A DNA stretch of 64,000 nucleotides from Entomortierella parvispora E1425 (taxonomy: Eukaryota > Fungi > Mortierellomycota): assembly GCA_020891255.1 (NCBI GenBank), contig BQFW01000013.1, forward strand, positions 2,294,001 to 2,358,000, given 5' to 3'. The translations under genes and the position numbers were made by a program. Positions 1-57,792 of the stretch are shown one piece after another; the stretch's first letter is position 1, and each line of letters starts with the position of its first letter. The notes below the pieces were generated by a model. That model saw nothing but the letters and a program-made list of their open reading frames with translations, made no database searches and had not been told where the DNA came from.

Positions 1-2501
1 TTTTGGTGCAAGGGAGAGCAGGCATTGGCAAAACAACGCTCTGCAAGAAGCTTGTCCATGCCCACCAGAATGGACTGTGGAGGAATCTGTTTGATGTCGT
101 ATTGTGGATTCCCTTGCGCAACCTCCGAGGATTTACAGGCAACACCCTCGAGGCTCTATTTCGTGACAAGATTTTTATCGGCCAGGATCGTGTCCAGCGT
201 CAAGAAGCGTTGGCGGAAGCTCTTGTGACTTGTGCTGAAAAGGGAAAGGTCCTTTTCATCTTGGACGGCATGGATGAGATTGTGGCCGATACGGAGAGCG
301 AGGAGCGCCAGACTTTTAGGAGGTTCTTAATGACCCTCCTTGGACAACAATATGTCGTCGTCACTTCGAGACCTTCCGGCGTAGACAGCTCACTATTGCA
401 ATCAACAGATCTGGAACTTGAGACTGTCGGGTTCAGTCAGCAGAATGTCCAAGATTTTCTGGTCAAGGTACTCGATTATGAGGGAGCAACATCGGTTCAG
501 GATTTTATTCGACGAACACCATTGATTCAAGGACTCGTCAACATCCCAGTGCAACTTGACGTGATCTGCTTCAGTTGGGATTCACTTCCCAAAAATGTCT
601 CACACATCACCATGACGGGACTATATCAGCTGATGGTGCAGAGACTTTGCTGCAAGGACGCAGTGCGACTCAAGAAGAAGGCGGGAAAAATATTGCTGAC
701 AGACCAGAGACTTCGCAGTTACGGTCCTAAAGAAATGGAGAATGTGATGGCGACCGAACTGCTGCATCTTGGGTACCTTGCGTTCAGAGGGATGGAGAAT
801 CGTCACCAAATCGAATTCGAAGAAAAGGACCTCCGCCAAGCGTTCAGAGAGCTTCAGGAAAGTTCTGGATTCAACCAGACGCCTACACCTGAAGATCTCG
901 TTGACACTATCAAGCAGACATCATTTTTGAACACGGCTGATGTAGACTTGAGCTCTCAAAACGCCAATTTTCAGCAAGCCTGGCATTTTTTGCACCTGAC
1001 ATTTCAGGAATATTTCGCCGCAACCTGGATAGTTCGCCATTTTACCCTCAGACAAGAGTGCCGCCCAGCCAAAATGATGTCCAGGGAACAATTGGCCGAC
1101 TTTGTTCACCAGCACAAATACAACCCTCAATATGAGATTGTTTGGTCAATGGTAGCAGGGCTGTTGGAAGGCGAGGCTCTGATGGAATTCTTTGGGCTTT
1201 TGCAGGGTGCGCCGCGCGATCTGATAGGAGGACGGCATGTGCTGATACTTGCATCCTGCTTCAACGAGGCACATGGTCGACTGGACTCCAAATATTCCAA
1301 GAAAGTAGACGAGGAGCTTCGGAGATGGCTTCGTTTTGAGATGCAGACACTTGAGCATGACGAAGACAGTGTCAGTAGGTTGGGCAGTCAGCTTTCATTC
1401 CCGGAGGCTTCTCTGGTCAACACACTGGTCTCTGAAAGCCCGTGGAGGAGCACCCTTGCAAGGACACTGGGGACTCGCTCTATAATGTCAGACGACGCCA
1501 TCACCTTCCTAGTCGTTGCACTCGACGACAACGACAACAGAGTGAGGTTTTTCGCTGCCGCAGCATTAGCAGAGCAGCCTCAATTGCCGGGATCATTGAT
1601 CACACCTCTCATTGCTGCACTGAAAGATAAGGATGGGGATGTCAGATATGCAGTGGCAACAGCATTAGGCAAACAGTCTCCGCTTCCAGAATCAGCCATC
1701 CCCGCTCTCGTCGCTGCACTCGATGATGAAGACGAAGATGTCAGGTCCGCTGCTGCATCGTTGTTATCCAAGCATTCAATTTCTCGAGAGACATCCATCC
1801 GGCCTCTCATCACGGTGATCGGTGCTAAAGACGAAGACGCCAACCCAACTGCTACATTGGCTTTGAACAGCATTCATTCCACGGGGCCGACTTTCATCCA
1901 ACCTTCGATTGCGCCACTCAAGAACGAACACGAGGAAGTCAAATTTGCAGTGACATTGAATTTGAGCGAAGAATCTGAGTTGCCAGAATCGCCCATAAAA
2001 TCCCCCGTCGACGCACTCAAGGATGAAAATGAGCATGTCAGATCTGCGGCAGTAAGATTATTGGGCAAACAATTTGAGTTGCCAGAATCAGCCATCGGAT
2101 CCCTTGTTGACGCACTCAAGGATGAAAATGAGGAAGTCAGAATTAGGGCAGCATACGCATTGGGCAATCAATCTGGGCTGCCGGAATCAGCGGTACATTT
2201 TCTCATTGCTCTACTCAAGGACGTCGGCAAATATGCCAGTATCTACGCTTTACAAGTTCTCCGGCAACATTCCCATTCCATATGTTTTGCTTTTCCACAG
2301 CTCACAAAAGATGAAATTACGAGCGTGTATGAGAGCTGTCTATTTCAGTATAGCTGCAGTCATGTTTTATCTTTACAAGTACAAGACGGCAGATTGCGGA
2401 TCTATACAGAGAAACGCAAGATCTCAGAGATCATTGACGGCGACGTGCAGGAGAAAATATTTTCTGCGTTCAGAGCTGTCCAGGATAAACGGGGGTTATA
2501 G
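1..2501 (+). CDS. NLR-like NACHT NTPase + HEAT-repeat protein (paralogue 1; 5' end lies outside the window)
   Basis: Walker A GRAGIGKTT, Walker B LFILDGMDE, NACHT winged-helix motif WHFLHLTFQEYFAA, then about 8 units of a 33-aa (99-bp) repeat LPESAIxSLVDALKDExxxVRxxAAxALGxQ; the frame is open from base 3 to the TAG at 2499-2501. Confidence 0.92.
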   Translation, partial: LVQGRAGIGKTTLCKKLVHAHQNGLWRNLFDVVLWIPLRNLRGFTGNTLEALFRDKIFIGQDRVQRQEALAEALVTCAEKGKVLFILDGMDEIVADTESEERQTFRRFLMTLLGQQYVVVTSRPSGVDSSLLQSTDLELETVGFSQQNVQDFLVKVLDYEGATSVQDFIRRTPLIQGLVNIPVQLDVICFSWDSLPKNVSHITMTGLYQLMVQRLCCKDAVRLKKKAGKILLTDQRLRSYGPKEMENVMATELLHLGYLAFRGMENRHQIEFEEKDLRQAFRELQESSGFNQTPTPEDLVDTIKQTSFLNTADVDLSSQNANFQQAWHFLHLTFQEYFAATWIVRHFTLRQECRPAKMMSREQLADFVHQHKYNPQYEIVWSMVAGLLEGEALMEFFGLLQGAPRDLIGGRHVLILASCFNEAHGRLDSKYSKKVDEELRRWLRFEMQTLEHDEDSVSRLGSQLSFPEASLVNTLVSESPWRSTLARTLGTRSIMSDDAITFLVVALDDNDNRVRFFAAAALAEQPQLPGSLITPLIAALKDKDGDVRYAVATALGKQSPLPESAIPALVAALDDEDEDVRSAAASLLSKHSISRETSIRPLITVIGAKDEDANPTATLALNSIHSTGPTFIQPSIAPLKNEHEEVKFAVTLNLSEESELPESPIKSPVDALKDENEHVRSAAVRLLGKQFELPESAIGSLVDALKDENEEVRIRAAYALGNQSGLPESAVHFLIALLKDVGKYASIYALQVLRQHSHSICFAFPQLTKDEITSVYESCLFQYSCSHVLSLQVQDGRLRIYTEKRKISEIIDGDVQEKIFSAFRAVQDKRGL

Positions 2502-6002: not shown

Positions 6003-6129
6003 TTGGACAGAAGTTTCCTTTCTCTCTTTCTCTTCTTTCTCTCTTTATCTTCTTTCCCTTCTTCGCTTCCCTTCCCCCTCACTCTTCTTTCTTCCTATCC
6101 CTCCATCTTTTCATAATCAGCTCTCTGCT

Positions 6130-7650
6130 CAGTTGCCAATGACATCATCCTACCTGCCATCTATCTGCTCTTTTGTCTCATCTGCCCGAGCCATGTCGGC
6201 TTCAGATCAACTCCTCGTATGTAGTCCCATCTCTGCGGTGCAAGTGTAATCGGTCCGAAAACGTGTTTACTCCGAGTCGCTGTCCTCCTCATACCCCCAT
6301 GGTGCCATGGAACGTCGCCTGATCAGGCTTGTCCCTGAATGAATGTAATGAAGGTAAAGGCAATGGCCAACATTGACAAGCAAACATCCAATCCGAACCT
6401 CGGCTCATAGCTCCTCCTCTTTGACATAGCATTGGACTCGACAAGCATAAAAGCTGGACCAACCTCGCGAAGGATCTTCGGGTATAGAGTATACAACAGC
6501 CTTGGCGACTTGTAATCGTGGACAGACCGGACAAATATCGTGCGTCAAACTGGGAGCATATACAAGGACCCGACATGAGCATGTACGTAACAAGCACAGT
6601 GCCAAGAAGGTCACAGGATATGCGTCGGGCAGTATCTCTCATTGAAGAAAGCCATGGGTCTTACATATGGTCTTGCCCTTCTTTATGAATATCACTTAAC
6701 GGACAGGAGCATGGCGACATACAACTCATGCTGGAGTTTGGACCTCAAGTCAAAGCAGTCCTACAATACCGTCTGACCGGACTGCGGTTGGTTGCAATTG
6801 GCACTCGGCCCAGGATCTGGAATGTGTTAGTGACCGCCCTCGGTCAAGGATTGCTTTTATTTTTGGGCACAAGGACGATCGAAACTTTGGTCCAAGAGCA
6901 GGAAAAGTTTGCTTAAACAGCGGACTTGGTCTTCCAACCACTCATCAGGACATGACACCGCCAGCCACGGAGCAGAAGGATGGGCTGTAAGCATGCTCAT
7001 AGCTCATAGATTGTGTATTTGCAACTCCTCGATATACTGAAAACAGGACCTCACAGAACTACCGGAAAAAAATTGCAAAGACGTCGGAGCAGTCCTTGCA
7101 ATGCTGCAGGTGCCAAGCTGTTGAAAAGTTTTCCGATATCCGTCTACTCTAGTAAATGTATTTCTCCCTCTTTGATCCTAACTGCGTACCGTATCTTGTG
7201 ATTTGAATGTACTACATGTGTCTAAAAAGCGCAGGGGCGAATCTCTAGCAGCCTCTTGAAGTGATCATGAAGCGCTACTGTAGTTGCTTGACTGCTGCCA
7301 CTTCAATAAACAATCTACTATTTTCAACATCTGAACTACAGAGCAACTGGCTCTTGGCTACCACAGCGCGATAATATCCGAAAAAAAAGAGGGAGGGTTT
7401 CACCATTTATACATTTATACATCACAGCAATGGAGGAGTCAAGGTTGCCGTTGAAATTCAGTCATAAGTGATGTTGTGCCAACATGCAGATGATGCACCA
7501 GGAACTAGCTGTACAGAACTCATGGGAAAGGGGATTGCTTGCCAGGGAGAGGATAGGCGGTACAGGATTTCACTGCACTGTCAAGGGTCCTGACCAAGTA
7601 TCAATGTAGATCTCAGTCGGGGGATGGAAGTTCAAACTTGCAGCGATGCA
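6130..7650 (+). pseudogene. Copy b of the unidentified decayed multi-exon gene family
   Basis: Colinear similarity to 38050-39700, 50050-51190 and 58010-59300. Conserved splice-like pairs (CTC|GTATGT, GCT|GTAAGC...AAAACAG|GAC). Stop-riddled peptides such as KHKSWTxLxKD, RRAVSLIEESHG and CCHFNKQSTIF..TEQLALGY. Confidence 0.6.
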
Positions 7651-8110: not shown

Positions 8111-8737
8111 GTTTTTTTTTTTGCTCTTCAACAAAGGGTTTCTTCACGCTATGTGCAAATAGAAAAGATCGAAGATAGAATTATAGCTGTAAAGCTGAAG
8201 GATGCACGCAAACGATGGGATGGAGTTTGGAAAAGATAGAGTTGAAAAAGAGGAACGGACGCGAAGGTTATGTTCCTGCACCCCCCATTCTCGGTCCAAT
8301 GGGTAATATCGACCATGGTTGTTCAAAAGGTCAAGAGCAGCACAGCTCTGGCGTCCGTGCATTTTTTTTGGGGGGGGGGGGGGTGTGGCAGAGTCAAAGG
8401 CCAAGAGCTCTTCACAACAGTGGCCTTGGACAGGCTCGCAATTGTCCAGAAGGGGTTTTTTTCTGGCGTTGGTCCAATAGAACCTATGGTTGCTTGTACA
8501 ATGAAACTGTCAGGGGCCAGAGGAAGGACTTGACGACTTGCTTGCAGACTGCTTTGCTGCGGTGAACTTCTGTTTTTTGGTCCTGAGCTCGCGTGCTGGG
8601 ATCTTTGAGTGCATTTTCCTCATGAGCCACACAATCTGGACCAGCATAGACTCGGCCTCAGTTCTCCAGGTACTCGCTGTAGTTGATGATGCACTACTTG
8701 TAGTACAGCTAGCTGCAAGTCTGCAAGTTAGCTCATT

Positions 8738-11602
8738 TTATTTTATCACATATCTGATCAAGTCCCTCAAGCGGATTATCTCCGTTTTCTTTTCTTCAAT
8801 GCCATCGAAAAAAAAGTCGTCCATGTTGGACATATTGATGTACACCATTACATCCTCGGTACCGGTAGCAGGGTCCTTCTTGATATGAGTAACATGTTGT
8901 TCTCCTTTGACACAAGGGAGCTCAATGTGAATACGAAGGATACCTGTGATCTTGTGTCCTCCGGATTTGACAAAGTCCTCCCTAATCCTTGACAGCGATT
9001 TGTACATTTTCTCTCCGTCTGCCTTCATGAATCTGCAACGAATGTCAGTCGAGGTCTCATTCTCTTCATGATGCGACTGGGGTATAGTATTGCTATAAAA
9101 CTTGATGCCCAGAGAGCCAGCGTACTGAGGGTTGGAAAAGAACCATGCTCCATCTTGGCGAGTGCCAGATTTCTCAGCCAGGAGCTTGTTCGATGGGCGC
9201 TCCAAGAGGAGTTGAAGATCGCCCCTAGTGTCGTCCCTTAGTCCATACCCATATCCCTGCGCTGTGTTGATTTCGTTGATCTGAAGCTTCAGTCCCTGGC
9301 ACCATGCAGGCAATTCGATGCCTTTAAGGAAAGGGAGGTCCACCAGATAGAAGTTATTAAATCGCTGTAAAGCCCTCCAGACAAGCGGCTCCAGACAATT
9401 CCCTTTGGCGGATGATTTCAGACCGAGATTTTGGAGGATCTCGTAAAGTTGATGAAGATGGCCCAAAAAGACGAGATCCTTCCCCAACAGTTTTAGCTCT
9501 TCCTCAACAACTTCGACAACGAGCGGCTCTTCCATGAGCCAATTCACACCATCCTTCTGCAATTGCAGACTACACACAGCCTTGTCCACGAAGTCGGCTT
9601 GGGTGCTTATCGAGAACTGCGTCTTGCCCCCATGAAGCTTGTAGGCTAATACCATACGGCCGAGAAGATGCGCGACATCTCCAGTCTCGTCGTCCGTCAG
9701 AAGTTGTCTGACTCCTGCCTGTAGCGACAACTTTGATCGAGCAATCGCCAAATCTACCACTTTATCCAGTTTGGCCTGTTTGGAGCTGTGGGGTTCAATG
9801 TGGCGGCACTCAAACATTTCAGTGACAACACTAGCCGAAAATCGTGCTCTTCCTGTTAATTTCTGGCGCTTGACACGCGGGATCGTACAGTCCGAGATGT
9901 CAACAAGTTCCGATAGTACGTTCTGCACGTCTTCTTCGTTAAACACGGGGAATTGCGTAATTCTGTGGAAGTTTGTGCGCTTTCCGACCGCTGGGTATAC
10001 GTCATCCGCATCCTGCAACGACATCGACGTTCCAAGTACCACCAGCGTTGAACGCATGTGGCTAAGTGTTGCACAAAGGGGCGTGAGGAACCCCCGAAGG
10101 TGGATATCCAGTATGCGACCCTTGCCGTCGAGGATCTTGTTTTCAACAATGGAAGATGGTGCAATAAATGTCCTGGGTAAGATACGATTTCCTGCGACTT
10201 GGGCTTCATCCAGAGCGACTACGAGTCCCAGTCCTCGTTTCGTAAGATATTCAGCCAAGCTCTTCTCCACTTGATGGTGCATGTCAACGATTGTGTCTGC
10301 ATCATACATGCGCAACTTCTTGACTAGTTCTCGGATGGTTATGGCTCCTCCATTGGCCTGTTCGCGAAAGAACTGCAGCGGCTCAAGATTCGGGTCAATG
10401 CTGAAAAGGACCTGAAGAAATAGCCGTCTTGCCAGGAATTCTAGCATGACACGTTCTCCTGCAAGTCGTTTCAGGCGCGTGTCATATTGTACCAGGTCGT
10501 TTAGTGCATTTAGTGCGGGCTTCGGAAAACTTGCGTACATCTGTTCAACATCCTGTGCAAGTGTAACAAAGTTGGGATCCTTGAAGTCAGGCGATGCCAT
10601 GCTCCGTGGGTCACAGCATATGCAATATATAACGAAATGTGTCCTTGCCAGGTCAATCACTGTTGCAGTCTTTCCGGATCCTGATCGACCAACCATGGCC
10701 ACCACACTGTGGCCAGTCGTCCTGCCTACATCGCGTCCAACAATCTCGAGTAGCGTCTTGTTATCGGTCGACATTGGCTGCTTATTCCGTAATAGTCCCA
10801 GCATCGCCGGGCTCATGAGATCCTCTGTTTCACCATATGGCAGGGGTTTCTCATAGAAGGGGCCAAGTTTTTTTTTTTGAGCGGCTACAACTTTCGCTGG
10901 GTCGATATTGTGCTTGACATGCGCTTGACGGCTCTCCTCGACGATTTGTGCCAGCTCACTATAAATGCCCTTACTGGGAATGGCTTTCTTCCGGATAGTT
11001 GACGCTGAATGAAAACGAGAGGAGAAAGAGTATTAGTAAGTATTTACGGAGAGCAGAGGCTTCCTTAAAGAGCGACGCTGTATTCTGGCCCCCAGTTGAA
11101 CATTTTTGTCCAATGAAAAGGCGAGTATACATTTCACCGAAAGGCATACCTGCATGGGCTATGTGAAGCAGCACGAAATGAGGGTACAAATAAAACGAAC
11201 AATTACAACAGCCCTTTACAAATAACCTCATGCGAATGAGAAACGAAGCCTGATGTGTTTGTTACCTTCTGGTGTCGGTGGCGCCTTGACGGCGATGTGA
11301 ATGAAGCCGCTTGCGCCATCAAGGAGCAGATCCTCGCCTTGGAGGCACCAACCAGGGTTGAGCTCGTGTTCTTCCTTGAGATCCTTCAAAACCTGGTCTA
11401 TGACTTCTTTGGATTCATTCACTGAAATGCTCACTTTCCAACGTCTGAGCAGGTCTGCATCGATCTTCTCGAAGGCGTTGGGTTTCTTTTTTATAATTTC
11501 GTCCTTGAGTACTCCAACTGTCTCCTCAGATTGAATCTTGACTGGGAAGGAAGTTGAAGTTGATTCGGTGATGAGAATGCAGTTCAGCGAAAGGAGAACC
11601 AT
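8738..11602 (-). CDS. Crinkler (CRN)-type protein 1: ubiquitin-like header + P-loop NTPase + PD-(D/E)xK-like C-terminus; exons 11602-11266 and 11004-8738 (867 aa)
   Basis: Exon 1 reads LSLNCILITEST..SFPVKI....TVGVLKDEI....LRRWKV....FIHIAVKAP (CRN header). A phase-1 intron G|GTAAC...TTCAG|CG keeps the frame (337+2267 nt). Walker A GRSGSGKT, Walker B VVALDEAQ, and RQDG...SLGIKFY in the tail. Confidence 0.88.
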
Positions 11603-12214
11603 GCTGGAAGACGGTAATTGACCTGGGAATGGTGGTAGGTTGAAAAAAGAAAATAATGAGTGTAGAGAAAGTAAAGGAAGCGAAGAGAAAGAGCGAGCGG
11701 AGGATGAGGGAATTAAGATTGGCAGGACAAATCGTGGTCAGCGCACTCTCGTGACTAGCCGATCTCAATGCAAGAGAGGAGAGGGATGCATGACAAGAGA
11801 TTGGATGTTAGAGACATGAGTGCAAGAGACGAGATTGATTCAAGGGATGAGTTGGGATGGGTGGAGAGATGGCAAGGGAAGGGAGGGAGACAGAACAATG
11901 CATTCTCCAAAAGGAGGCTGCGCTTGCCGCATCCAGAAAACAAAGGGCCATGGTCTTGAAGACAGGAAGACACGAGCAAGCGGGAAGGGGAGGAAAGATG
12001 AGAGAAGAGAGAAGAGAAGAGGGAAGAAAAGAGGGAAGAGATGCGAGGAACGAGGGAAGAGATGAGAGGGAAGAGCAAAGAGAGAAAGACGACTGAAGAA
12101 GAGAAGGGCAAGAGGGGAGAGATCAAAGAAAAGAAGAGAAGAAACAATCAAAACTGACAAACAAGAGGGACGAGAAGAGAGTCTTCTGTCTTTTTTTATT
12201 TTTTGTTTTTTTGG

Positions 12215-14740
12215 TGCCAGCAGCAGCAAAGTGCGCCTGGATAAACATGTGCAGCTTGATGTAGGCACACGGTGAGTGTTGCTACATCAGGTGGAGTAAC
12301 CTCTTCCTCCAGGTCCCCTCGTTTTGTTGCGCTCTGCCTGAGAGGACGAGATTCAAGCGCGTCAAAACCAGAGGACGCGACACGACGCGACGTTTGAGAT
12401 TCGCGTACCAGTTCCTGTGGTGTGCAGTCAGCAGGAATTTGTTTCCAACAAGTCAAGGACAGGTGGGTCTCCATTAATCTAACCGTGAACGAATGCTGTG
12501 AATCCACCGCCACAGACTCTTCTTGCACGCTCACTCATCAGTGGCGCCCTTCCATTAGACATGTATCTGTGCTGCTTGCCCTAGTGATCCAAGAGAGAAT
12601 CGCACGACGAAGACTACTGAGCAGGTTGGATTCTGACCAGGTCACTAGGCAAGAAAGATGAACGTCACTGATGTGGCACACGCATGCCCCAAGATGAAAT
12701 GGTCTTGATTTAGGTAGTGGTAGACTACTCCGAGATAGGAGATCTTCAAGCCTGGGTAAACCCTTGCACTAAATAAAGATGCTTGCATGGGACAGCTGCA
12801 GTCTGTCCAATCAGAGAATTCACTCTCCAATTGTGCGGGAGCCGACTCACGCCCATAAAGTTCGTACCTGACAATATGATAAAGGGCGCCTCCTGTCCCC
12901 TGGCAAAAACAAGAGTAGGATAGAAAGGGGTGCTGGTGCGAAAAAAATGCATTTATTGTGTTTCCGGTTTGTGCCTTTGCACTGTGTTTGTCGTAAGTAG
13001 GGTTATGAGGGCTACGGTGCAAGAGGCAATACCTGCTGTGTATGTCTGCTCCTAAAATCGGGGCTATGGAGATGGTACATTTGAGAACAGTAGAAACTCC
13101 TGCTTGCTAGGCTCGAATTGCGAAAGATGCTCCTTGAAATGACGTAGGATTAGAAATAGAGAGAGATCGTGAGTTGATAACATTATCGGATCTCGGTCAG
13201 AACTTCCACGATCCAAAGTGTAATCGGGAAATGGGGTTGTCTCAGCAATGGTATTTTTTGATGTTCTCCAGATCTGATGCCTTCCACGACTGCTTAGCCC
13301 ATTCCCGATTATGCTGAAGCCATTTGAGAGCCCCCTAAAGAAGCAATCAATGTTAGCCGAATGTGCTGGATCATGATGAAGTCATTGTTCCCGTGAGCGA
13401 TGGTGGCAAGCCCGGGGGCGTTGTTGATTCTTGATCGCGGCGGTTTCCCCTTGACTCTGAGGTCCTGGTGTTGCAAATGTTATTGTTTGCTGGTTTGATA
13501 TGGCTTTCTCTTATCTCGAAACGTTCCCGACCATTGAAGCAATGTGTGCTCGCTACAACAAATAGTTGTCGTTAACAATATTTCGAATTTAAAAACCATA
13601 GAGAATAGCAGCACAAAGATTGCACTTACTGCCTGAAACTCCTTCTTGATTGTAGCCGAAATCTCGTCTGATGACATCCTTTTGAGATGTCTTCCTAACC
13701 GACTCTTCTCTGTTCAGGAATGGCCCACGAGGTAGGGTAGTATCTGACCACTCCAATACCCTTGTAGTCGGGAAGGATCCTCAAACTCCTGAAAGGCCCT
13801 CATGAAAGCTGTAAGTGAAATGGTCCGAACATTTGCTCGGTCAAAGAAATCTCTGTGGATGACGAGCATTCGCGTCTTCTGGACTATTGTCCTCAAAAAG
13901 AATAAGAAACGGTTAAAAAGTTCTTGAATAAATCAACAGCAATCTACATTTATCCAATCTGGTTGATTGATCACTGAGTGAATGCGCACTCGTTACACCG
14001 AAAGTAGCACTATCGGATTCCAGGAGTCGCCACCGTCATTCCTTCTTGTCATTGGAAAGGAATAGGGACAGGTTCATGATTCTACGTTGTAGAACATGAG
14101 ACGCGTGGACTAGTTTAACACATCCTCATTGCTTTCGCGGCCGAAGATGTGCAGAGCCTTCACCATGATCCTCAAGTGACTGACCAAGAGAGTTGAGGAT
14201 CAAATCCAATCAATCATGGCAACAGTGGCAAAGGAAGGTGAAGGAGCGCCGATTACGCAAAAAGAAACACTATTTGCTCCTGTGCCATAGTCAGCATCCT
14301 CTAATGCAATTAAGAGGATGAAGACCGCCGTGTTGTTTGACAACACTGCGCTGGGAGAGGATAGGCTTAACAAACCGCGATCCACTTCGCGCATTTGCAT
14401 ATCCATTCACGAGACTTGCCTCATGTGTCTTGCAAGGAGAGATGAGAGCTCTGTCATCCGCAGGCTTGCCACTGTTGCCCCCAGATCAACACTACTGACT
14501 GTACACACTTGCCTTAGTTTGCACAAATGAGAATGAGAGGACGACTGATGACAACTGTGGGAGTTGATGGACGCTGTGAAAGTGAAAGTGGCCTAATGTC
14601 GGGGTGGCGAGATCAATCGACGGGGGATTAGGACTGACTGAAGGTAGAATGGAGAGCGAGTCGAGGGTAATGAATGACACGAGCGAGCGAGTAATCCAAA
14701 AAAAAAAGGCTCCAGGACAATCCACGCCTTAATTACGTCA
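12215..14740 (-). pseudogene. Intron-containing pseudogene of an unrecognised family (copy 1 of a ~2.5-kb duplication)
   Basis: Colinear with 47355-49850. Coding-like HRDFFDRANVRTISLTAFMRAF...YWSGQILPYL, a GTAAGT...TTGTAG intron and in-frame stops (TAA at 13511-13513 where copy 2 has CAA). Confidence 0.55.
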
Positions 14741-15889: not shown

Positions 15890-18800
15890 CATTTCCATAA
15901 AATTCACGGTTCATTTTTGTTGAATGGATTTTTATGGACGGCCTATGAGGGCGTGTGTAACATAGTCAGGGCCATTGCCAATGGACCGTCAAAACCAATG
16001 AAATTTTGTTTTCGCCCCTTTTTATCCATTATGAGATGATGAGCCACAGTCCCCCCTGACGGTCTGGCATCGTCTTTGATCAACGACTGCCTGTCGAATC
16101 TCCGTACGTACTTCTCTCCTCCCTCCCTCCCTCCCCTCCCCTCTCCCTCCTCCCTCTCCTCCCTCTCTTCCCTTTCCTCTCACTCACTGTTTCTCTGTCG
16201 TATTTTTCATGTCTGCGTGTGTGAGAGCGTGTGTGCGCACGCGCATGTGTATTTTATTAAAAAAAAAAAAAAAAGGAAAAAAAAAAAAACTATGGTTGCT
16301 CTTTTGCTTTCACCTTTCCTTTTCCTTGCTCTTTTTCTTCTGAGCTTCCAAACCTCTTGGAAACCTTTTTGGGCAAAAGCTTGTAGTATGCTGCAATTGA
16401 GCAAGAGTTGCAATCTTCCTTCAGCATGTCCTGAAAGTCTTGAAGAGCTTGTGCAATCATAGCCATGTCAATTGGTGTGTTATCCGGGATGTAGCGCAAG
16501 ACCGATTGAACAATCGTCTTCTTGAATAAGTAGAGACCTGCAAACCCGTTTTTCCCATCAGGGTTAGCCGAATTCTTTTCACTGCGCCATAGATTTGAAT
16601 ACCATGAATCCATCGTCACGACTGAGGGGCTACCATTGACACCATAGAACCACTCTTGCCAAACCCCCTCTAGCGTGTTTGGCCGAGGGACCAACGTGCA
16701 CAAAGGCATGTGCCTGGGCATAGGAGGGTCAACCTCGCCTCTCTCTCTTCTGTAGTGCGCAATTACTACAGCCACAGCTTGGATTTTATCTTGAGTTTTG
16801 ACAGAATGGCCGCTGTCATCATGACAACGTGGATGGATAATGGAAGGAGGAGGAGCGACTAAGCTCGATTCTTCTACCCTCGATAATTGCAGGCTGAGAA
16901 TCGGGGCACCTGGGGCTTCCTGCTCTTTTGACAGCAGACCCAAACGAGGTAGAACGGACCCTTCAGTGATACTCAAGCCTCCTTGTTCTTGTTCTTGGGT
17001 TATAGAGGTCATCCGACCAGCAGCATCTGACAGAGAGGCCGCTAATGACTTCACTAGGGCATCAATCTTGTCATTCACCTTGCCCATACCTTGAACGACA
17101 CCCTCAAGGACATACTGATTACGCTGCTCTGCATGCAAGGCTCGGCGGTCCTGGTAGACTTGGAGCCTCTCAATGTTATCCGAGATCTTGGAGATCGCAG
17201 TGCTCATTGTTTGTTGTCGGGAAGTTTGCTGTGATATGAGGGCATTGGCGGCCTCCAGTTGCCGCTGAATAACAGGTGCCACGGACGTTAGGTTGCTAGG
17301 GCGAAGGGAAGTGTGGGCTAACGTTTCTGCCATCAACTTCTTAAAGGCCAAAAATTCCGGAGACCTGAATACTTCACGCTTGAAAATAGGGTGCCGGGAA
17401 GATTTGTTCTCGGCCAATAAAAAAGACGGCGGCGTCCTGCAGAATGACTTTCCGCAAGTGGGCAAGCAGACAAAGATGCCGTCGACGCGAGATTGCCTCA
17501 TCAGAGAGAACTTTCCGTGCAGCCCTTTTCTTGATTTTTTTTGATCTTAATATTTTCCTCTTGACGTCCGTAGAATATGCTCCGATCCAGCATGATGTTG
17601 TCGATGGTCTGGATCCAGAAAGGGTCGTAGTGCTTTTTGTCCTCAGGATTTGAGCATGCACGTTCAATGAATGGGAAGACCATGCGCTGTAGCTCGAGGT
17701 CTGGAATGACATTACGCTCCAGCCAAAAGTTTTCCGTACGGCCATTCTCAAATCCGGCCATTTGCAACGCCACAGATGCATCGACGCCGTCGAGGTAATG
17801 GGTGATGAGTCGGTTTGTCCCCCAGCCGCCGTGTTTCGATATATCTTCGTGCGTGGCTCCAGTCAGCCGCGCCAAAAAAGCACCCAGTCGTCTACTGAGA
17901 TGGGTTGCTTTGCCTTTGACACCAATGTTGAGATAATCCTGGACCTCGCGTGTCTGCTTGTACTGTGTGGCATATCGTATCTCTGATGTTCGTGTGGTGG
18001 ACTTTGACAACAAGTGATAGTTGACCCAGTCGTGATCTTCTACTCTAGGCGGAGGGGCAGCCGATGAGGAAGTAGGCTAGATAATTCAGATTAGAAAGGG
18101 GTAGAGCCTCACCCAGCTCATAAAATGTACGTCATAATCAAAAAGTTCAAACTTACCAACCAGTACTCAAGCAGATAAAAGGCTAGAGCACCGACAGGAC
18201 ACGCTTCCACGTCTGGGTTTCGTACCACGACATTATATCGGATCTTGCCATTATTGTTCATTTTTCCTTGTCTTGTCATCAAAACCACACCAAGGACGAA
18301 TTTTCTCTCCTGCTCCCGATCTTTCCGCACTGGACGTGCAACATTCTGGCCAAAGAGGTCGATCAATCTCATCCTGCGTGTGGTTTCACTGCGGCACATC
18401 ATAAAAAATCGAAGGGCGGCGTCAGCTCGATGGCGAAGACCAGTTATCACTCGTGTCCATTTGCTCTGTTCGCCCTGTATATTATGGTGCCAAAAGTGCA
18501 CCATTACCATCTTGACATTCTCCAAAGGGTCCTCCTCGACAAAGTTTGCTGAGCCTTGATCGGTATCTGTCGCTCTCTTCGTGACCGCCACTCTTCTTTC
18601 GTAACTCGTAATCAGGTCCCTCAGGTAATCCATCGGCTTTCTCTCGAGACACCTGAACATGACTTTGTTGTCTGGGTCCACACGTTGCTGACGGTAGAGT
18701 TCTCCGATGGCGGATGCGTGTAATTTTACCGTTGAGAGAGACGGTGCATTGGCCGGTAATCCCCTGTCGGAATGACATACATTCTCACCGAGGTCGTCAT

Positions 18801-20041
18801 TGACACTATCGCTGTCACTATCGTTGTCATCATCAGTGTCGTCGCTATCATGACCATCGCTGTCACTGTCACTGTTGTCGTCGCCTCTTTCTCTCTCGTC
18901 TTCAATTGCTTTTTCTTTTCCCGCGCATTCCAGTAGGTAAAATGATGATACCTGTTAACATGGAAGTTGACATAGAGGTCATTCTGATGAGAATACGTAG
19001 ACAATGGAGATACAAAATGTGATTATCGGTTCTTACCCTTGCTTGGGTCCTCTTTCGATGCAGTTAAACAAGTCCAGTAACGCAAGACTTTCTCTTCGAT
19101 GACGTTGGCGTCTGAGTATCCAGCTTCCGTGCACCATTTCTAGTCATTAATGAGTTTATGGGTGTTTGTAGTAGACGAATTAGAAAAAAAAAAAAAAAAA
19201 AAAAGGATAAAGGGCACTGTCAGCCATGATCAGCCACGATCGTACACTTGGCCCAACTTACAGAGAATACGGCTTGATATCGGTCATAGAGTGCACGCGT
19301 CGACGTCTTGATACTTTCCCTTCGCTGTTCGCGGACAAGTTGCATACAGGCCAACTCCTTTTGTCTCAAGTCAAGCTCATGAGCTTGACGCGCCTTCTGT
19401 CCGCATGGAACTGCGCGACAATAGAAGTACTAGACGAGATTCCTTGCGTGTTGTCGTGTTGTCGTGACGCCGCGAGCTCGGACGCGTCGAGTGAATCCTG
19501 CAGGTACAACGAAGCCCAGAGAGATGGAGCATGAGTATATAGGCAAACAGAATGGCATAGAGGCACACAGATGGCACTGTTCATTCCGCAGCATGCGTAG
19601 AGCTGACGTAGTCGAGTCGAGCATTACATTAGATTCACGTTGAGATGAATCGACTTGCTGGGAGCATGGTTGCTGGCCAGTTGTCGGAGGCTCTCGTTTC
19701 TGTCGTTTTCGCGTCCGCTGTTGTTGCTGTTGTTGCTGCTTGGGTTCCTGGGGCGGTTCCTGGTCCTGTTGAGACAATTGATGCTTGGGCATTTGGAGAA
19801 GGTGCGCCAATGAAAGAATGTAAAAGAATGATGTAGCAAATGTGCCGCATGCATGAACGGGCCCAGGCGCCTGACAACCCCCCTTTATTCCCGTGGACAA
19901 AAAGAAAATATCTGTTTTTTGGCCCTTGTTCAATTTCATGGGCTGGTTCATCGGGCCAATAATGGACTGCAGGCGCGACGACGATTGGCCGACTTGGTCA
20001 CGTGACTTTATGGACCGTCAATGTCCAGGAAGCGTCTCATT
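15890..20041 (-). mobile_element. Fungal Crypton (tyrosine-recombinase DNA transposon), monomer 1
   Basis: 4148-bp unit bounded by CATT at 15890-15893 and 20038-20041; near-identical to the next unit. Confidence 0.88.
16290..19792 (-). pseudogene. Crypton recombinase + GCR1_C-like gene, monomer 1 (two extra homopolymer bases frameshift the last exon)
   Basis: Same multi-exon gene as monomer 2, but with T8 vs T7 near 17535-17542 and A6 vs A5 near 17419-17424; these could be real slippage or sequencing error. The start codon is putative. Confidence 0.7.
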
Positions 20042-23000
20042 TCCATAAAATTCACGGTTCATTTTTGTTGAATGGATTTTTATGGACGGCCTATGAGGGC
20101 GTGTGTAACATAGTCAGGGCCATTGCCAATGGACCGTCAAAACCAATGAAATTTTGTTTTCGCCCCTTTTTATCCATTATGAGATGATGAGCCACAGTCC
20201 CCCCTGACGGTCTGGCATCGTCTTTGATCAACGACTGCCTGTCGAATCTCCGTACGTACTTCTCTCCTCCCTCCCTCCCTCCCCTCCCCTCTCCCTCCTC
20301 CCTCTCCTCCCTCTCTTCCCTTTCCTCTCACTCACTGTTTCTCTGTCGTATTTTTCATGTCTGCGTGTGTGAGAGCGTGTGTGCGCACGCGCATGTGTAT
20401 TTTATTAAAAAAAAAAAAAAAAGGAAAAAAAAAAAACTATGGTTGCTCTTTTGCTTTCACCTTTCCTTTTCCTTGCTCTTTTTCTTCTGAGCTTCCAAAC
20501 CTCTTGGAAACCTTTTTGGGCAAAAGCTTGTAGTATGCTGCAATTGAGCAAGAGTTGCAATCTTCCTTCAGCATGTCCTGAAAGTCTTGAAGAGCTTGTG
20601 CAATCATAGCCATGTCAATTGGTGTGTTATCCGGGATGTAGCGCAAGACCGATTGAACAATCGTCTTCTTGAATAAGTAGAGACCTGCAAACCCGTTTTT
20701 CCCATCAGGGTTAGCCGAATTCTTTTCACTGCGCCATAGATTTGAATACCATGAATCCATCGTCACGACTGAGGGGCTACCATTGACACCATAGAACCAC
20801 TCTTGCCAAACCCCCTCTAGCGTGTTTGGCCGAGGGACCAACGTGCACAAAGGCATGTGCCTGGGCATAGGAGGGTCAACCTCGCCTCTCTCTCTTCTGT
20901 AGTGCGCAATTACTACAGCCACAGCTTGGATTTTATCTTGAGTTTTGACAGAATGGCCGCTGTCATCATGACAACGTGGATGGATAATGGAAGGAGGAGG
21001 AGCGACTAAGCTCGATTCTTCTACCCTCGATAATTGCAGGCTGAGAATCGGGGCACCTGGGGCTTCCTGCTCTTTTGACAGCAGACCCAAACGAGGTAGA
21101 ACGGACCCTTCAGTGATACTCAAGCCTCCTTGTTCTTGTTCTTGGGTTATAGAGGTCATCCGACCAGCAGCATCTGACAGAGAGGCCGCTAATGACTTCA
21201 CTAGGGCATCAATCTTGTCATTCACCTTGCCCATACCTTGAACGACACCCTCAAGGACATACTGATTACGCTGCTCTGCATGCAAGGCTCGGCGGTCCTG
21301 GTAGACTTGGAGCCTCTCAATGTTATCCGAGATCTTGGAGATCGCAGTGCTCATTGTTTGTTGTCGGGAAGTTTGCTGTGATATGAGGGCATTGGCGGCC
21401 TCCAGTTGCCGCTGAATAACAGGTGCCACGGACGTTAGGTTGCTAGGGCGAAGGGAAGTGTGGGCTAACGTTTCTGCCATCAACTTCTTAAAGGCCAAAA
21501 ATTCCGGAGACCTGAATACTTCACGCTTGAAAATAGGGTGCCGGGAAGATTTGTTCTCGGCCAATAAAAAGACGGCGGCGTCCTGCAGAATGACTTTCCG
21601 CAAGTGGGCAAGCAGACAAAGATGCCGTCGACGCGAGATTGCCTCATCAGAGAGAACTTTCCGTGCAGCCCTTTTCTTGATTTTTTTGATCTTAATATTT
21701 TCCTCTTGACGTCCGTAGAATATGCTCCGATCCAGCATGATGTTGTCGATGGTCTGGATCCAGAAAGGGTCGTAGTGCTTTTTGTCCTCAGGATTTGAGC
21801 ATGCACGTTCAATGAATGGGAAGACCATGCGCTGTAGCTCGAGGTCTGGAATGACATTACGCTCCAGCCAAAAGTTTTCCGTACGGCCATTCTCAAATCC
21901 GGCCATTTGCAACGCCACAGATGCATCGACGCCGTCGAGGTAATGGGTGATGAGTCGGTTTGTCCCCCAGCCGCCGTGTTTCGATATATCTTCGTGCGTG
22001 GCTCCAGTCAGCCGCGCCAAAAAAGCACCCAGTCGTCTACTGAGATGGGTTGCTTTGCCTTTGACACCAATGTTGAGATAATCCTGGACCTCGCGTGTCT
22101 GCTTGTACTGTGTGGCATATCGTATCTCTGATGTTCGTGTGGTGGACTTTGACAACAAGTGATAGTTGACCCAGTCGTGATCTTCTACTCTAGGCGGAGG
22201 GGCAGCCGATGAGGAAGTAGGCTAGATAATTCAGATTAGAAAGGGGTAGAGCCTCACCCAGCTCATAAAATGTACGTCATAATCAAAAAGTTCAAACTTA
22301 CCAACCAGTACTCAAGCAGATAAAAGGCTAGAGCACCGACAGGACACGCTTCCACGTCTGGGTTTCGTACCACGACATTATATCGGATCTTGCCATTATT
22401 GTTCATTTTTCCTTGTCTTGTCATCAAAACCACACCAAGGACGAATTTTCTCTCCTGCTCCCGATCTTTCCGCACTGGACGTGCAACATTCTGGCCAAAG
22501 AGGTCGATCAATCTCATCCTGCGTGTGGTTTCACTGCGGCACATCATAAAAAATCGAAGGGCGGCGTCAGCTCGATGGCGAAGACCAGTTATCACTCGTG
22601 TCCATTTGCTCTGTTCGCCCTGTATATTATGGTGCCAAAAGTGCACCATTACCATCTTGACATTCTCCAAAGGGTCCTCCTCGACAAAGTTTGCTGAGCC
22701 TTGATCGGTATCTGTCGCTCTCTTCGTGACCGCCACTCTTCTTTCGTAACTCGTAATCAGGTCCCTCAGGTAATCCATCGGCTTTCTCTCGAGACACCTG
22801 AACATGACTTTGTTGTCTGGGTCCACACGTTGCTGACGGTAGAGTTCTCCGATGGCGGATGCGTGTAATTTTACCGTTGAGAGAGACGGTGCATTGGCCG
22901 GTAATCCCCTGTCGGAATGACATACATTCTCACCGAGGTCGTCATTGACACTATCGCTGTCACTATCGTTGTCATCATCAGTGTCGTCGCTATCATGACC

Positions 23001-24186: not shown

Positions 24187-24625
24187 GCAAATCGATCTGG
24201 TTCTGACTCCGGCTTTTATGAAGTTCAGGGTGCCGCGACCCTGGTCCTCGCACAGCTGCCCTGCAAGATGTATGGCATTTATGTTAAATATAAGGCTTCT
24301 GCGGTAGCGTATGCCGATCAACCTCAAGCCTTCTGGACGGAGCGTCAGTACAACCCAAGCTTCAGCGAACTGGCGGCTATAGGACCGTCCTACTTAGGCA
24401 TTCAGGCAACCTCACTGCATCGGAGCGAGCCTTCAGTCAAGCATTATTCTTCCCCCTCCAAGGGACTCTATCTGTGTGTATCTTTCTTTATTGATCTCAC
24501 GTGACTCCAAAGAAAAAATTGCTCTGCAATAAAGGGATCTCTCGATGCATCTCTCAGATCTCCATCTTTCTTTTTCACGCGGCCGGACATTAATCATCCC
24601 CCGAAACTCGACTGATCCTGATCTA

Positions 24626-28442: not shown

Positions 28443-29387
28443 AATGAAGGCTAAAGCAACATTTATTCGACACCGACAAGGGACTCTAGATGTCCCACCC
28501 GGCCCGCCCTAGGCATATCTTTGCGAGTAGATGGAGATCTGAGAGATGCATCGAGAGATCCCTTTATTGCAGAGCAATTTTTTCTTTGGAGTCACGTGAG
28601 ATCAATAAAGAAAGATACACACAGATAGAGTCCCTTGTCGGTGTCGAATAAATGTTGCTTTAGCCTTCATTTCATTCGGCAACGCTAGACAGGATTGATC
28701 CCCGACAAAAAAAGAGCATCCACTTAAGACAATAATTTCAACTCTATAATTTGTGCTCAGAGCTTTGCCCTTGTTATTCCAGAGATTGCAAAGATACGAA
28801 GGAAAGAAGAACTTGCAAGACTGGAGAGGGCACGCAGAGTACCTGTAGTTTGAAATGAACATACGATAATAAATATCTTCATTTGTTCCCTTTTTTTTTT
28901 TTTTTTTTTGAGGAGTGAGAGGCTGGGACCGAAGGGAAGTGACATCGTTGTTTTTGTTACCAACGATAGGAAGGAGCAAGGAGAGTACGACAGAGATGAA
29001 AACAAGGACCATGACAATGAAAAAAAGAACGCGCCACGGCAGGAAAAACAGCACGCTCGGCAGGAACGGAGAACATGCCACGGCGGGAAGGAGAACACGC
29101 CTGCTGGGCGGGAAAGAGAGCTCGCCTGGGCGGGCGTCACCAAATTCACGCCGCAGTGTGACACGGAAGTCGCCGCGGCGTGTGGCTTAGAACACGCCAC
29201 GCTCAGCGTGTTCCCAAACTTTCGGGTGAGTTCGCACAGTGTGAATTGAGCCTGGACACGGCTAAAATTTGGACTCGCAGTCTCTATGACAGCAAGAACC
29301 GCATTTTGGGGATTCGAACTACGTACATGTACTGCACATACCGACAAGGGAGTTGGAAAAAATTACAGCAAGTCTCAACTCTTATGT

Positions 29388-54719: not shown

Positions 54720-54787
54720 TGGAATCGCGCGGCGATTCCACTGCTAGGGCCTGTATGGACGGGAACCAGATTGCTGTCGGCCAGAAT
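54720..54787 (+). mobile_element. ~65-bp filler copied from the DIRS family 3 MTase region
   Basis: GCGCGGCGATTCCACTGCTAGGGCCTGTATGGACGGGAACCAGATTGCTGTCGGCCAGAA is nearly identical to 46863-46921. Confidence 0.8.
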
Positions 54788-54798: not shown

Positions 54799-57792
54799 TT
54801 ATTTTATCACATATTTGATCAAGTCCCTCAAGCGGATTATCTCTGTTTTCTTTTCTTCGATGCCATCGAAAAAAAAGTCGTCCATGTTGGACATGTTGAT
54901 ATACACCATTACATCCTCGGTACCGGTAGCAGGGTCCTTCTTGATATGAGTAACATGTTGTATTCTTTGGACACGAGTTAGCTCAAGGTGAATACGTAGG
55001 ATACCTGTGATCTTGTGTCCTCCGGATTCGACAAAATCCTCCCGAATCCTTGACAACGATTTGTACATTTTCTCTCCATCTGCCTTCAAGAAGCTGCAAC
55101 GAATGTCAGTCGAGGTTTCATTCTCTTCATGAAGCGACTGGGATATAGGATTGCTATAAAACTTGATGCCTAGAGAGCCAGCGTACTGAGGATCGGAAAA
55201 GAACCATGCTCCATCTTGGCGAGTGCCAGATTTCTCAACCATGAGCTTGTTCGATGGGCGCTCCAAGAGGAATTCAAGATCGCCCCTAGTGTCGTCCCTT
55301 AGTCCATACCCATATCCCTGCGCTGTGTTGATTTCGTTGATCTGAAGCTTCAGTCCCTGGCACCATGCAGGCAATTCGATGCCTTTAAGGAAAGGGAGGT
55401 CCACCAGATAGAAGTTATTAAATCGCTGTAAAGCCCTCCAGACAAGCGGCTCCAGACAATTCCCTTTGGAGGATGATTTCAGGCCGAGATTTTGGAGGAT
55501 CTCGTAAAGTTGATGAAGATGGCCCAAAAAGACGAGATCCTTTCCCAACCGTTCTAGCTCTTCCTCAACAACTTCGACAACGAGCGGCTCTTCCATGAGC
55601 CAATTCACACCATCCTTCTGCAATTGCAGACTACACACAGCCTTGTCCACGAAGTCGGCTTGGGTGCTTATCGAGAACTGCGTCTTGCCCCCATGAAGCT
55701 TGTAGGCTAATACCATACGGCCGAGAAGATGCGCGACATCTCCAGTCTCGTCGTCCGTCAGAAGTTGTCTGACTCCTGCCTGTAGCGACAACTTTGATCG
55801 AGCAATCGCCAAATCTACCACTTTATCCAGTCTGGCCTGTTTGGAGCTGTGGGGTTCAATGTGGCGGCACTCAAACATTTCAGTGACAACACTAACCGAA
55901 AATCGTGCTCTTCCTGTCAACATCTGGAGCTTGACAAGCGGGATTGTACAGTCCGAGATGTCAACAAGTTCCGATAGTACGTTCTGCACGTCTTCTTCGT
56001 TAAACATGGGGAATTGCGTAATTCTGTGGAAGTTTGTGCGCTTTCCGACCGCTGGGTATACGTCATCCGCATCCTGCAACGACATCGACGTTCCAAGTAC
56101 CACCAGCGTTGAACGCATGTGGCTAAGTGTTGCACAAAGGGGCGTGAGGAACCCCCGAAGGTGGATATCCAGTATGCGACCCTTGCCGTCGAGGATCTTG
56201 TTTTCAACAATGGAAGATGGTGCAATAAATGTCCTGGGTAAGATACGATTTCCTGCGACTTGGGCTTCATCCAGAGCGACTACGAGTCCCAGTCCTCGTT
56301 TCGTAAGATATTCAGCCAAACTCTTCTCCACTTGATGGTGCATGTCAACGATTGTGTCTGCATCATACATGCGCAACTTCTTGACTAGTTCTCGGATGGT
56401 TATGGCTCCTCCATTGGCCTGTTCGCGAAAGAACTGCAGCGGCTCAAGATTCGGGTCAATGCTGAAAAGGACCTGAAGAAATAGCCGTCTTGCCAGGAAT
56501 TCTAGCATGACACGTTCTCCTGCAAGTCGTTTCAGGCTCGTGTCATATTGTACCAGGTCGTTTAGTGCATTTAGTGCGGGCTTCGGAAAACTTGCGTACA
56601 TCTGTTCAACATCCTGTGCAAGTGTAACAAAGTTGGGATCCTTGAAGTCAGGCGATGCCATGCTCCGTGGGTCACAGCATATGCAATATATAACGAAATG
56701 TGTCCTTGCCAGGTCAATCACTGTTGCAGTCTTTCCGGATCCTGATCGACCAACCATGGCCACCACACTGTGGCCAGTCGTCCTGCCTACATCGCGTCCA
56801 ACAATCTCGAGTAGCGTCTTGTTATCGGTCGACATTGGCTGCTTATTCCGTAATAGTCCCAGCATCGCTGGGCTCATGAGATCCTCTGTTTCACCATATG
56901 GCAGGGGTTTCTCATAGAAGGGGCCAAGGGTTTTTTTTTGAGCGGCTACAACTTTCGCTGGGTCGATATTGTGCTTGACATGCGCTTGACGGCTCTCCTC
57001 GACGATTTGTGCCAGCTCACTATAAATGCCCTTACTGGGAATGGCTTTCTTCCGGATAGTTGACGCTGAATGAAAACGAGAGGAGAAAGAGTATTAGTAA
57101 GTATTTACGGAGAGCAGAGGCTTCCTTAAAGAGCGACCCTGCATTCTGGCCCCTGGCTAAACATTTTTGTCTAATGAAAAGGAGAGTATACACTTCACCG
57201 AAAGGCATACCTGCATGGGCTATGTGAGGCAGCAAGAAATGTGGTAAAACGAACAGTTACAACAGCCTTTCACAAACAAGTTTATACGAGTGAGAATGGC
57301 GCCTGCCGCATTACCTTGAGAGGGTGATTGGACGACAATGTAAATGAGGCTCCTGTCTGCGCCATTTCGAAAATAAGTCTCAAGATTCTCGAGTTCGTCA
57401 GCAAGCTCTTTGCGAGACGCAGTAGAAAGCTGCGCCGTAGTGGCTCCACCTTCAATATGAAAGAGAGTGAGCTTGTCAGCAGCGATCTTGTTGAATTCGG
57501 GGTCTTTTTCTTTCTTGATTTCGTCCTTGAGCTTGCTGACAGATTCTGAAGATGCAATATCAACAGGGAATGAGCTCGATTCTCCATCCATGATACAGTT
57601 CAGGCGGAGCATCTTGCCGGCCATGGTGATGTCGGTCATGGCGGATGGAGAGGCGGCTGGTTTCGAGGACGTGTCCGCTGCGGAAGAATGACTCGTAGCA
57701 GTCCGTGGTGGACTCGTCGAGCTTCCTGCTGATGATCCTGGTTGGAGATTGCTGGTTGATTTCGCTTTCCCTTTGCCATTGTTCTTTGTCAT
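54799..57792 (-). CDS. Crinkler-type protein 2; exons 57792(or 57624)-57315 and 57065-54799
   Basis: Exon 2 (2267 nt) is nearly identical to that of CRN 1. The different header reads LRLNCIMDGESSSFPVDI...VSKLKDEIK...ADKLTLF...LIYIVVQSP, with a phase-1 G|GTAAT donor. Confidence 0.88.

What the first reader, a model, noticed from the sequence alone, without database searches (positions are those of the whole stretch)
8738..11602. Crinkler pair built by intron-mediated exon shuffling
Seen: CRN1 and CRN2 (54799-57792) share a 2267-nt exon 2 and most of the intron. Homology stops about 35 nt from the donor and about 10 nt after the stop codon, and the two ubiquitin-like header exons are only distantly related. 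Both introns are phase 1. Known: CRN/CR effectors recombine between header and NTPase-nuclease modules. Inference: here a phase-1 intron makes the swap frame-safe, so one toxin-like module is coupled to two different headers and promoters.
Basis: partly seen in the sequence, partly recalled or inferred. Interest (0 to 1): 0.75.

Follow-up and report, generated by a model that had tools for sequence, protein, structure and literature searches.

The report
Fungal Crinklers swap headers at introns
Two fungal Crinkler genes share an almost identical enzyme-like body but carry different front domains, and the join lies in an intron/9-base-exon/intron block whose splice phase appears conserved across relatives, which likely lets recombination swap front domains without breaking the reading frame; the swapping itself is known, the intron link may not be.

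Summary
The pair is real. Both genes carry a Pfam Crinkler header (38% identical to each other) and a 2267-nt last exon (51 differences). One correction: the 'single intron' is two phase-1 introns around a 9-nt micro-exon, shown by a spliced contig for gene 1 and by deposited proteins identical to the three-exon reading. Shuffling is supported in both directions: this body also sits behind a third header, and headers 88% identical to header 2 sit on two unrelated bodies. The phase-1 junction recurs in 7 of 8 relatives with upstream DNA (predicted sites), and a second header swap at that donor appears in another fungus. However, breakpoints also fall inside exons, and header/body recombination at this motif is textbook for oomycete Crinklers, where tested genes lacked introns. 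Best reading: ectopic recombination or gene conversion among clustered paralogues, with a shared phase-1 intron cassette acting as a frame-safe crossover zone. Whether the intron drives shuffling or only tolerates it is untested. The body is an AAA+/STAND-like NTPase plus a likely restriction-endonuclease-fold domain whose activity is uncertain. New variant of a known kind; ten library searches found no report of the intron link.

The parts
11266..11602 (-). Gene 1 exon 1: Crinkler ubiquitin-like header H1 (112 aa), ends in a phase-1 donor just after the HI.V..P motif
   Evidence: Pfam PF20147 E 9.7e-16; phase; spliced contig
11159..11265 (-). Gene 1 intron 1, 107 nt, GT..AG, phase 1
11150..11158 (-). 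Gene 1 9-nt micro-exon (symmetric 1-1)
   Evidence: X2 contig joint 11011-11266 with 2 letters between and 1 mismatch; P0005 identical to three-exon reading
11005..11149 (-). Gene 1 intron 2, 145 nt, GT..AG, phase 1
8738..11004 (-). Gene 1 last exon: body B1, AAA+/STAND-like NTPase plus likely REase-fold C-terminal domain
10667..10690 (-). Walker A (body residues 105-112); Walker B DE at body residues 265-266 (10205-10210)
   Evidence: K111 and T112 in 54 of 54 rows, D265 in 55 of 55 rows of alignment A1
8741..9415 (-). C-terminal alpha/beta domain with conserved E538, D617, K634 (likely restriction-endonuclease fold; the residue two before K is A/G, not E/D/Q)
   Evidence: fold not confirmed by structure search
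9947..11076 (-). Most recently homogenised tract between the two genes (5 differences in 1130 nt); starts inside intron 2, ends inside the coding exon; counterpart 56008-57137
57315..57792 (-). Gene 2 exon 1: 58-aa Ser/Thr-rich extension plus Crinkler header H2, phase-1 donor
   Evidence: Pfam PF20147 E 5.5e-17
57220..57314 (-). Gene 2 intron 1, 95 nt, phase 1 (80% identical to gene 1 intron 1)
   Evidence: predicted, no spliced contig seen
57211..57219 (-). Gene 2 9-nt micro-exon, identical to that of gene 1
   Evidence: P0095 identical to three-exon reading
57066..57210 (-). Gene 2 intron 2, 145 nt, phase 1 (136/145 identical to gene 1)
54799..57065 (-). Gene 2 last exon: body B1, 96% aa identical to gene 1
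54720..54786 (-). 69-nt piece right after the 3' end of the shared block, 94% identical to 46854-46922; possible rearrangement scar

Best explanation
The two genes are Crinkler (CR) paralogues that share one NTPase-plus-likely-nuclease body but have different headers, most likely because ectopic recombination or gene conversion among clustered Crinkler genes exchanged parts in or near the phase-1 intron/micro-exon/intron block that separates header from body. Shown: gene structure, stepwise identity, reciprocal header/body combinations in deposited proteins of the same species, splicing of gene 1 in one contig. Inferred: the intron block is a stretch of homology shared by genes with unrelated headers and unrelated bodies, so it can seed crossovers; because the junction introns are all phase 1 and the linker exons are multiples of three, any crossover inside the block gives an in-frame chimera. 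Later conversion tracts, which also end inside exons, keep the bodies alike. The product would be a non-secreted or unconventionally exported ATP-regulated DNA-binding or DNA-cutting protein, with the header and its promoter setting partner, place or timing; that function is inferred from the family only.
For: Same body, three headers: P0005, P0095, P0006 bodies 91-96% identical, headers 31-38% (32-38%). Same header, three bodies: H2 is 89/101 identical to the headers of P0096 and of P0097, whose bodies show no significant blastp match to B1 or to each other (best E about 1); the switch falls at the exon boundary, and P0096/P0098 keep the micro-exon peptide. Genomic contigs of run X1 leave the gene-2 sequence at 57318 (a fourth header running into the same phase-1 donor), 57245 (intron 1) and 57180 (intron 2). 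Relatives: 7 of 8 loci with upstream DNA have a predicted phase-1 donor after the header motif and a phase-1 acceptor at the body start, with optional middle exons of 36, 63 or 9 nt; L002 and L012 share intron and body but diverge just upstream of the donor. Across 33 proteins, header-versus-body identity correlates at 0.35 against 0.69-0.90 for seven equal-sized body windows. Among 65 short header-only ORFs, 29 carry the peptide trace of a phase-1 donor, 2 of phase 0 and at most 10 of phase 2; background 149 of 1706 windows.
Against: Breakpoints are not confined to introns: the cleanest tract ends at 9946 inside the coding exon, the best single split is at 9214 (permutation p 0.0002), and L013/L017 differ in a patch inside the header exon. 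L006 has no intron at the junction. Header and body distances still correlate (Mantel p 0.0015), and headers evolve faster (mean identity 43% against 57%). Oomycete CRNs recombine at the same motif although 10 of 10 tested P. capsici CRN genes had no introns (PMC3607596, passage), so an intron is not needed. Gene 2 splicing was not seen in a contig. The splice evidence is one contig of one run that the tool labels 'DNA?'. Splice sites in metagenome loci are predictions, and the 7 loci form only 5 independent groups. Intron positions of P0006 and P0096-P0098 were not seen in DNA.
Confidence: 0.68

Rival explanations
1. Ordinary gene conversion or unequal crossover with an incidental intron: all these genes inherited one ancestral phase-1 intron, tracts simply end where similarity falls away, and the intron neither attracts crossovers nor is kept for shuffling.
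For: Stepwise identity gradient rather than one break; tract ends inside exons; intronless oomycete CRNs recombine at the same motif; one ancestral intron explains conserved phase with no selection for shuffling.
Against: Three of three informative X1 loose ends near the junction of gene 2 fall at the donor or inside the two introns; swaps between wholly unrelated bodies need a shared homology block, and the intron block is the only one seen; all predicted middle exons are multiples of three.
Confidence: 0.24
2. Transposon-mediated capture or duplication moved the body (with part of the intron) behind a new header, without homologous recombination.
For: The shared block ends about 8 nt after the stop and abuts a 69-nt piece of another locus; the window holds Crypton-like and DIRS-like elements; Helitron-mediated CRN shuffling has been proposed for Phytophthora (PMC5289972, section 11).
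Against: Similarity fades gradually through intron 1 into paralogous header sequence, as expected of homologous exchange; introns are retained, so not a retrocopy. Element ends around the block were not searched for.
Confidence: 0.05
3. Whole-gene duplication followed by very fast header divergence, with no swap.
For: Headers diverge faster than bodies on average (43% against 57%).
Against: Headers differ at 50% of bases while the adjacent exon differs at 0.4%; H2 is 88% identical to headers on unrelated bodies but 38% to H1.
Confidence: 0.02
4. Assembly artefact that pasted one body behind two headers.
For: Run X1 may be the sample behind the assembly, so it is not independent; no single contig spans gene 2 from header to body.
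Against: The copies differ at 51 sites; X1 has separate contigs for the variants and one 1307-nt contig covering header 1, intron 1 and the micro-exon with no difference; the X2 spliced contig links H1 to gene-1 alleles (1 other letter on gene 1, 3 on gene 2).
Confidence: 0.01

Closest known systems
Oomycete CRN (Crinkler) effectors with recombination at the HVLVVVP motif (reviewed in PMC5289972; P. sojae analysis PMC3726527)
   Same: Modular header plus body; swaps just after the HI/HV.V..P motif; both patterns occur (same header with unrelated bodies, different headers with near-identical bodies; 32% and 35% of P. sojae CRN genes, section 16 read).
   Different: Here the motif is followed at once by a phase-1 splice donor and optional 1-1 linker exons; 10 of 10 tested P. 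capsici CRNs had no introns (PMC3607596, passage). The host here is a Mortierellaceae soil fungus by the label of the identical deposited proteins; no secretion or host delivery is shown.
CR (Crinkler-RHS) proteins of the Ubl header + NTPase + REase architecture (Zhang et al. 2016, seen only through the review PMC5289972 section 11; the paper itself was not held)
   Same: Pfam Crinkler header; P-loop NTPase with AAA+/STAND-like fold; C-terminal alpha/beta domain with conserved E, D and K.
   Different: The numbered CR-NTPase/CR-REase subfamily could not be assigned; the position two before the lysine is A/G in 49 of 50 rows, so the canonical PD-(D/E)xK motif is not met literally.
Class 1-1 (symmetric phase-1) exon shuffling of animal multidomain proteins (recalled, no call)
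   Same: Modules bounded by phase-1 introns; symmetric exons can be added or dropped without frameshift.
   Different: Here terminal modules (first exon with promoter, last exon) are exchanged between paralogues, and the symmetric exons are short linkers, not domains.
Rhizophagus RiCRN proteins (PMC6131194, passages)
   Same: CRN-like headers with REase/NTPase bodies in Mucoromycota.
   Different: That paper's main text does not discuss introns or exons (0 hits outside references).

Membership tests
Crinkler / CR proteins | N-terminal ubiquitin-like Crinkler header | tested here: met
   PF20147 above gathering score in both genes (58.9 and 62.9 bits against 24.6)
Crinkler / CR proteins | HVLVxxP-like motif closing the header | tested here: met
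   HIAVKAP and YIVVQSP just before the donor
Crinkler / CR proteins | Header/body recombination within the family | tested here: met
   reciprocal combinations
CR NTPase+REase class | P-loop NTPase of AAA+/STAND type | tested here: met
   Walker A and B conserved; model pLDDT 86.8 matches Cdc6/Orc1, TnsC, MuB and archaeal ATPases, Foldseek E 1e-4, Z 10-11, rmsd 4-5 A over 240-300 residues
CR NTPase+REase class | C-terminal restriction-endonuclease fold with catalytic E, D, (D/E/Q)xK | tested here: inconclusive
   helix-strand pattern and conserved E538 (51 of 52), D617, K634 (47 of 50) fit, but position 632 is A/G; structure searches were filled by the NTPase, and the single-sequence model of the domain failed (pLDDT 33)
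Secreted, host-translocated CRN effector | Secretion and delivery into a host cell nucleus | not testable with these tools
   no hydrophobic leader is evident by eye in H1 or H2; no predictor was run
Intron-mediated exon shuffling | Same-phase introns at module boundaries | tested here: met
   4 of 4 introns in the window phase 1; 7 of 8 related loci, predicted
Intron-mediated exon shuffling | Recombination breakpoints enriched inside the introns | tested here: inconclusive
   breakpoints seen at the donor and in both introns but also inside exons; no whole genome was held for a count

The most novel reading that the evidence does not exclude
Fungal Crinkler repertoires are a genome-wide, phase-1 exon-shuffling system: a conserved splice donor right behind the header motif, a set of optional symmetric linker micro-exons and a phase-1 acceptor on every body make any header, with its promoter, compatible with any body, across several fungal lineages. 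The intronless oomycete HVLVVVP 'hotspot' would then be the same module boundary without, or after loss of, this intron.
Probability: 0.33. Interest if true: 0.72.

Novelty: new variant of a known kind. Interest (0 to 1): 0.5.

Why it matters
CRN/CR proteins are one of the most widespread eukaryotic effector-like families, and the mechanism behind their known header/body hotspot has been open (a Helitron route was proposed). A conserved phase-1 intron block gives a concrete, countable mechanism in fungi: breakpoint position and intron phase can be tabulated from existing genomes. It would also be an unusually clear case of ongoing exon shuffling in a fungus, and it warns that header-only or body-only fungal CRN gene models are often split at this intron. 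The single gene pair by itself is ordinary for the family.

Tried and rejected
No whole genome was held, so the genome-wide phase and breakpoint table could not be made. No RNA holder was listed by the run search; X2 is read as cDNA-derived only from its spliced contig and near-zero intron depth. The single-intron model was rejected. 'H3 is the ancestral header of B1' (an early note) was dropped: its nearest headers are only 45% identical against 40-41% for H1 and H2, and header-tree support is weak, so the order of events is unresolved. Run X3 shows no cover over header 1; a gap in contig cover is not evidence of absence. Body search with the single protein in metagenome contigs found nothing; with the alignment, nothing in viral contigs or prokaryote genomes. 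Header 1 had no close relative among 174 longer candidates (weak evidence). The header alignment was too variable for a locus scan. The C-terminal domain folded alone gave an unusable model, and no nuclease was listed in the structure searches of the full body, which does not exclude one. The Atlas gave only Crinkler or unnamed clusters. Earlier findings of this scan: none in three look-ups. Zhang et al. 2016 was not held. No supplements were read; CRN gene-structure tables there could already show the intron.

Full report
Observation. A self-blastn of the window gives one 2513-nt match, 8730-11242 against 54791-57296, 96.9% identical. Both genes are on the minus strand. The last exons are 2267 nt each with 51 substitutions and no indels. 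The first exons encode Pfam Crinkler headers that are 38/101 residues and 153/303 bases identical. Similarity ends about 8 nt after the stop codon. No whole genome was held.

Corrected gene structure. Laying three public runs on gene 1 showed one contig of run X2 (1006 nt, depth 25) that joins 11266 to 11011 with two extra letters and one mismatch. That is exactly a 9-nt exon at 11150-11158, flanked by AG and GT. The three-exon readings translate letter for letter to deposited proteins P0005 (870 aa) and P0095 (917 aa), which their source labels Entomortierella parvispora; these models probably derive from the same assembly, so they are not independent. All four introns are phase 1. The tool lists X2 as 'DNA?' and lists no RNA holder; that X2 is cDNA-derived is my inference from the spliced contig and its near-zero depth over the introns, where X1 has full depth. 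No spliced contig was seen for gene 2.

Shape of the homology. Identity rises stepwise: header 50%, intron 1 76/95, micro-exon 9/9, first 73 nt of intron 2 with 9 differences, then 5 differences in 1130 nt (11076-9947), then 46 in 1209 nt. The boundaries were chosen after looking, so their Fisher values (about 1e-8) are inflated; a permutation test on the last exon gives p 0.0002 with the best split at 9214. Sites where gene 2 matches a third paralogue rather than gene 1 are scattered in the 3' half. This is a mosaic of exchange tracts, the latest starting inside intron 2 and ending inside the coding exon.

Reciprocal shuffling in the same species. A third deposited paralogue, P0006, has the same body (91-92%) behind a third header (31-35% to H1 and H2) and no micro-exon peptide; an X2 contig appears to show its direct splice (loose end at 11006). 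Conversely, headers 89/101 identical to H2 sit on two unrelated bodies: P0096/P0098, which keep the micro-exon peptide, and P0097, which lacks it. The three bodies show no significant blastp match (best E about 1). Genomic X1 contigs depart from gene 2 at 57318, where a fourth header end runs into the same phase-1 donor, at 57245 in intron 1 and at 57180 in intron 2 (18 of 24 loose ends were shown, and I cannot tie these contigs to particular proteins).

Relatives. An alignment-based scan of metagenome contigs gave 21 loci; 8 reach the body start with upstream DNA and were examined. Seven have a predicted GT donor in phase 1 right after the header motif and a phase-1 AG at the body start; they fall in 5 independent groups (L002/L012, L004, L005, L013/L017, L018). 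L006 is intronless. Predicted middle exons are 36 nt (L004), 63 nt (L013/L017) and 9 nt (L002/L012). L002 and L012 share intron and body (656/755) but diverge just upstream of the donor, a second header swap. L013 and L017 have identical bodies (749/749) and differ in a patch inside the header exon. Of 91 homologues, 33 had both a full header and a near-full body; header and body identities correlate at Spearman 0.35 (Mantel p 0.0015), against 0.69-0.90 for seven 110-column body windows versus the rest. The header tree is poorly supported, so no order of events is claimed.

Phase across unrelated bodies, indirect. A header profile found 4876 cluster representatives at E 0.001; the best 150 were returned. 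After dropping P0096 and P0105 (the ORF of L005), 148 remained and the closing motif was located in 101. Of 65 with a tail of 90 residues or less (likely read-through into an intron), 29 show the peptide trace of a phase-1 donor within 14 residues, 2 a phase-0 trace and at most 10 stop at once (phase 2 or truncation); 1 of 36 long-tailed proteins and 149 of 1706 background windows show the phase-1 trace (p 1e-13).

The protein. An AlphaFold model of the body from 55 sequences (pLDDT 86.8) matches AAA+/STAND-like ATPases (Cdc6/Orc1, TnsC, MuB, archaeal ATPases) over residues 40-490. Walker A and B are conserved. The last 230 residues form an alpha/beta domain with conserved E538, D617 and K634, as in restriction-endonuclease-fold domains (family knowledge), but the position two before the lysine is A or G in 49 of 50 rows, and the fold was not confirmed. 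Nuclease or toxin activity is therefore an inference.

Mechanism. Most likely, ectopic recombination or conversion among clustered paralogues in a repeat-rich region. The intron/micro-exon/intron block supplies homology between genes that share neither header nor body, and uniform phase 1 makes crossovers there frame-safe. The main rival is that the intron is inherited and incidental; exon-internal breakpoints and intronless oomycete CRNs keep it alive.

Literature. Recombination after the HVLVxxP motif is established (PMC5289972, passages and section 11; PMC3726527, section 16). Ten of ten tested P. capsici CRNs lacked introns (PMC3607596, passage). A chytrid CRN table lists intron counts without position or phase (PMC3161006, first part of section 4). 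PMC6131194, PMC10234402, PMC5364385, PMC5053185 and PMC3886924 were searched by passage and gave no statement on junction phase; PMC10234402 mentions a misannotated first intron of CRN10. Ten searches of the held library (listings seen) showed no paper linking CRN shuffling to intron phase; 'crinkler' with 'mortierellaceae' gave 0. The library lacks most subscription papers, Zhang et al. 2016 was not held, and no supplements were read.

Verdict. Real, corrected in detail, and generalisable: a new variant (intron-bounded, micro-exon-linked) of the known CRN header/body recombination. Interest 0.5.

Noticed in passing
window 24459-28637 (+) and about 31871-36096 (-): Two DIRS-like retrotransposons in opposite orientation: about 100-nt inverted terminal repeats, overlapping ORFs with reverse transcriptase (RVT_1 E 1.6e-27 and 3.7e-22), a weak Dam-methylase hit in the first, and long ORFs (27% identical to each other) with a weak tyrosine-recombinase hit.
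   Followed up: partly
window 15890-24186: Perfect tandem duplication of a 4.15-kb unit (99.9%, 3 gaps) encoding NDC10_II and GCR1_C domains, Crypton-like by recalled domain content; the first copy's frame is split, which could be an assembly indel.
   Followed up: partly
window 3-2498 (+), 40289-45177 (+), 59629-63999 (-): Three NACHT plus HEAT-repeat (NLR-like) genes, 76-85% alike with differing repeat numbers; the middle one has an ARM_5 N-terminal part and in-frame stops or introns at 41950 and 43554. The Crinkler genes sit in this NLR-like cluster.
   Followed up: partly
window 12218-14707 / 47360-49837 and 6030-7386 / 50004-51203 / 57956-59307: Two families of 1.3-2.5-kb dispersed repeats (73-88% identical) with no convincing Pfam hit in the ORFs scanned; one lies upstream of each Crinkler gene.
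   Followed up: no
P0099-P0247: 83 of 148 top header hits carry two or more tandem Crinkler headers, many as ORFs ending just after the last header; the ranking favours multi-domain hits.
   Followed up: no
window 8537-8691, 11818-11951, 57184-57810: Run X1 shows several diverged contigs over the 3' flank of gene 1, part of its upstream region, and the micro-exon block and header 2, so these pieces recur elsewhere in the genome.
   Followed up: partly
window 52592-54416 (+): ABC-G type transporter gene ending about 380 nt from the stop of gene 2, convergent with it.
   Followed up: no
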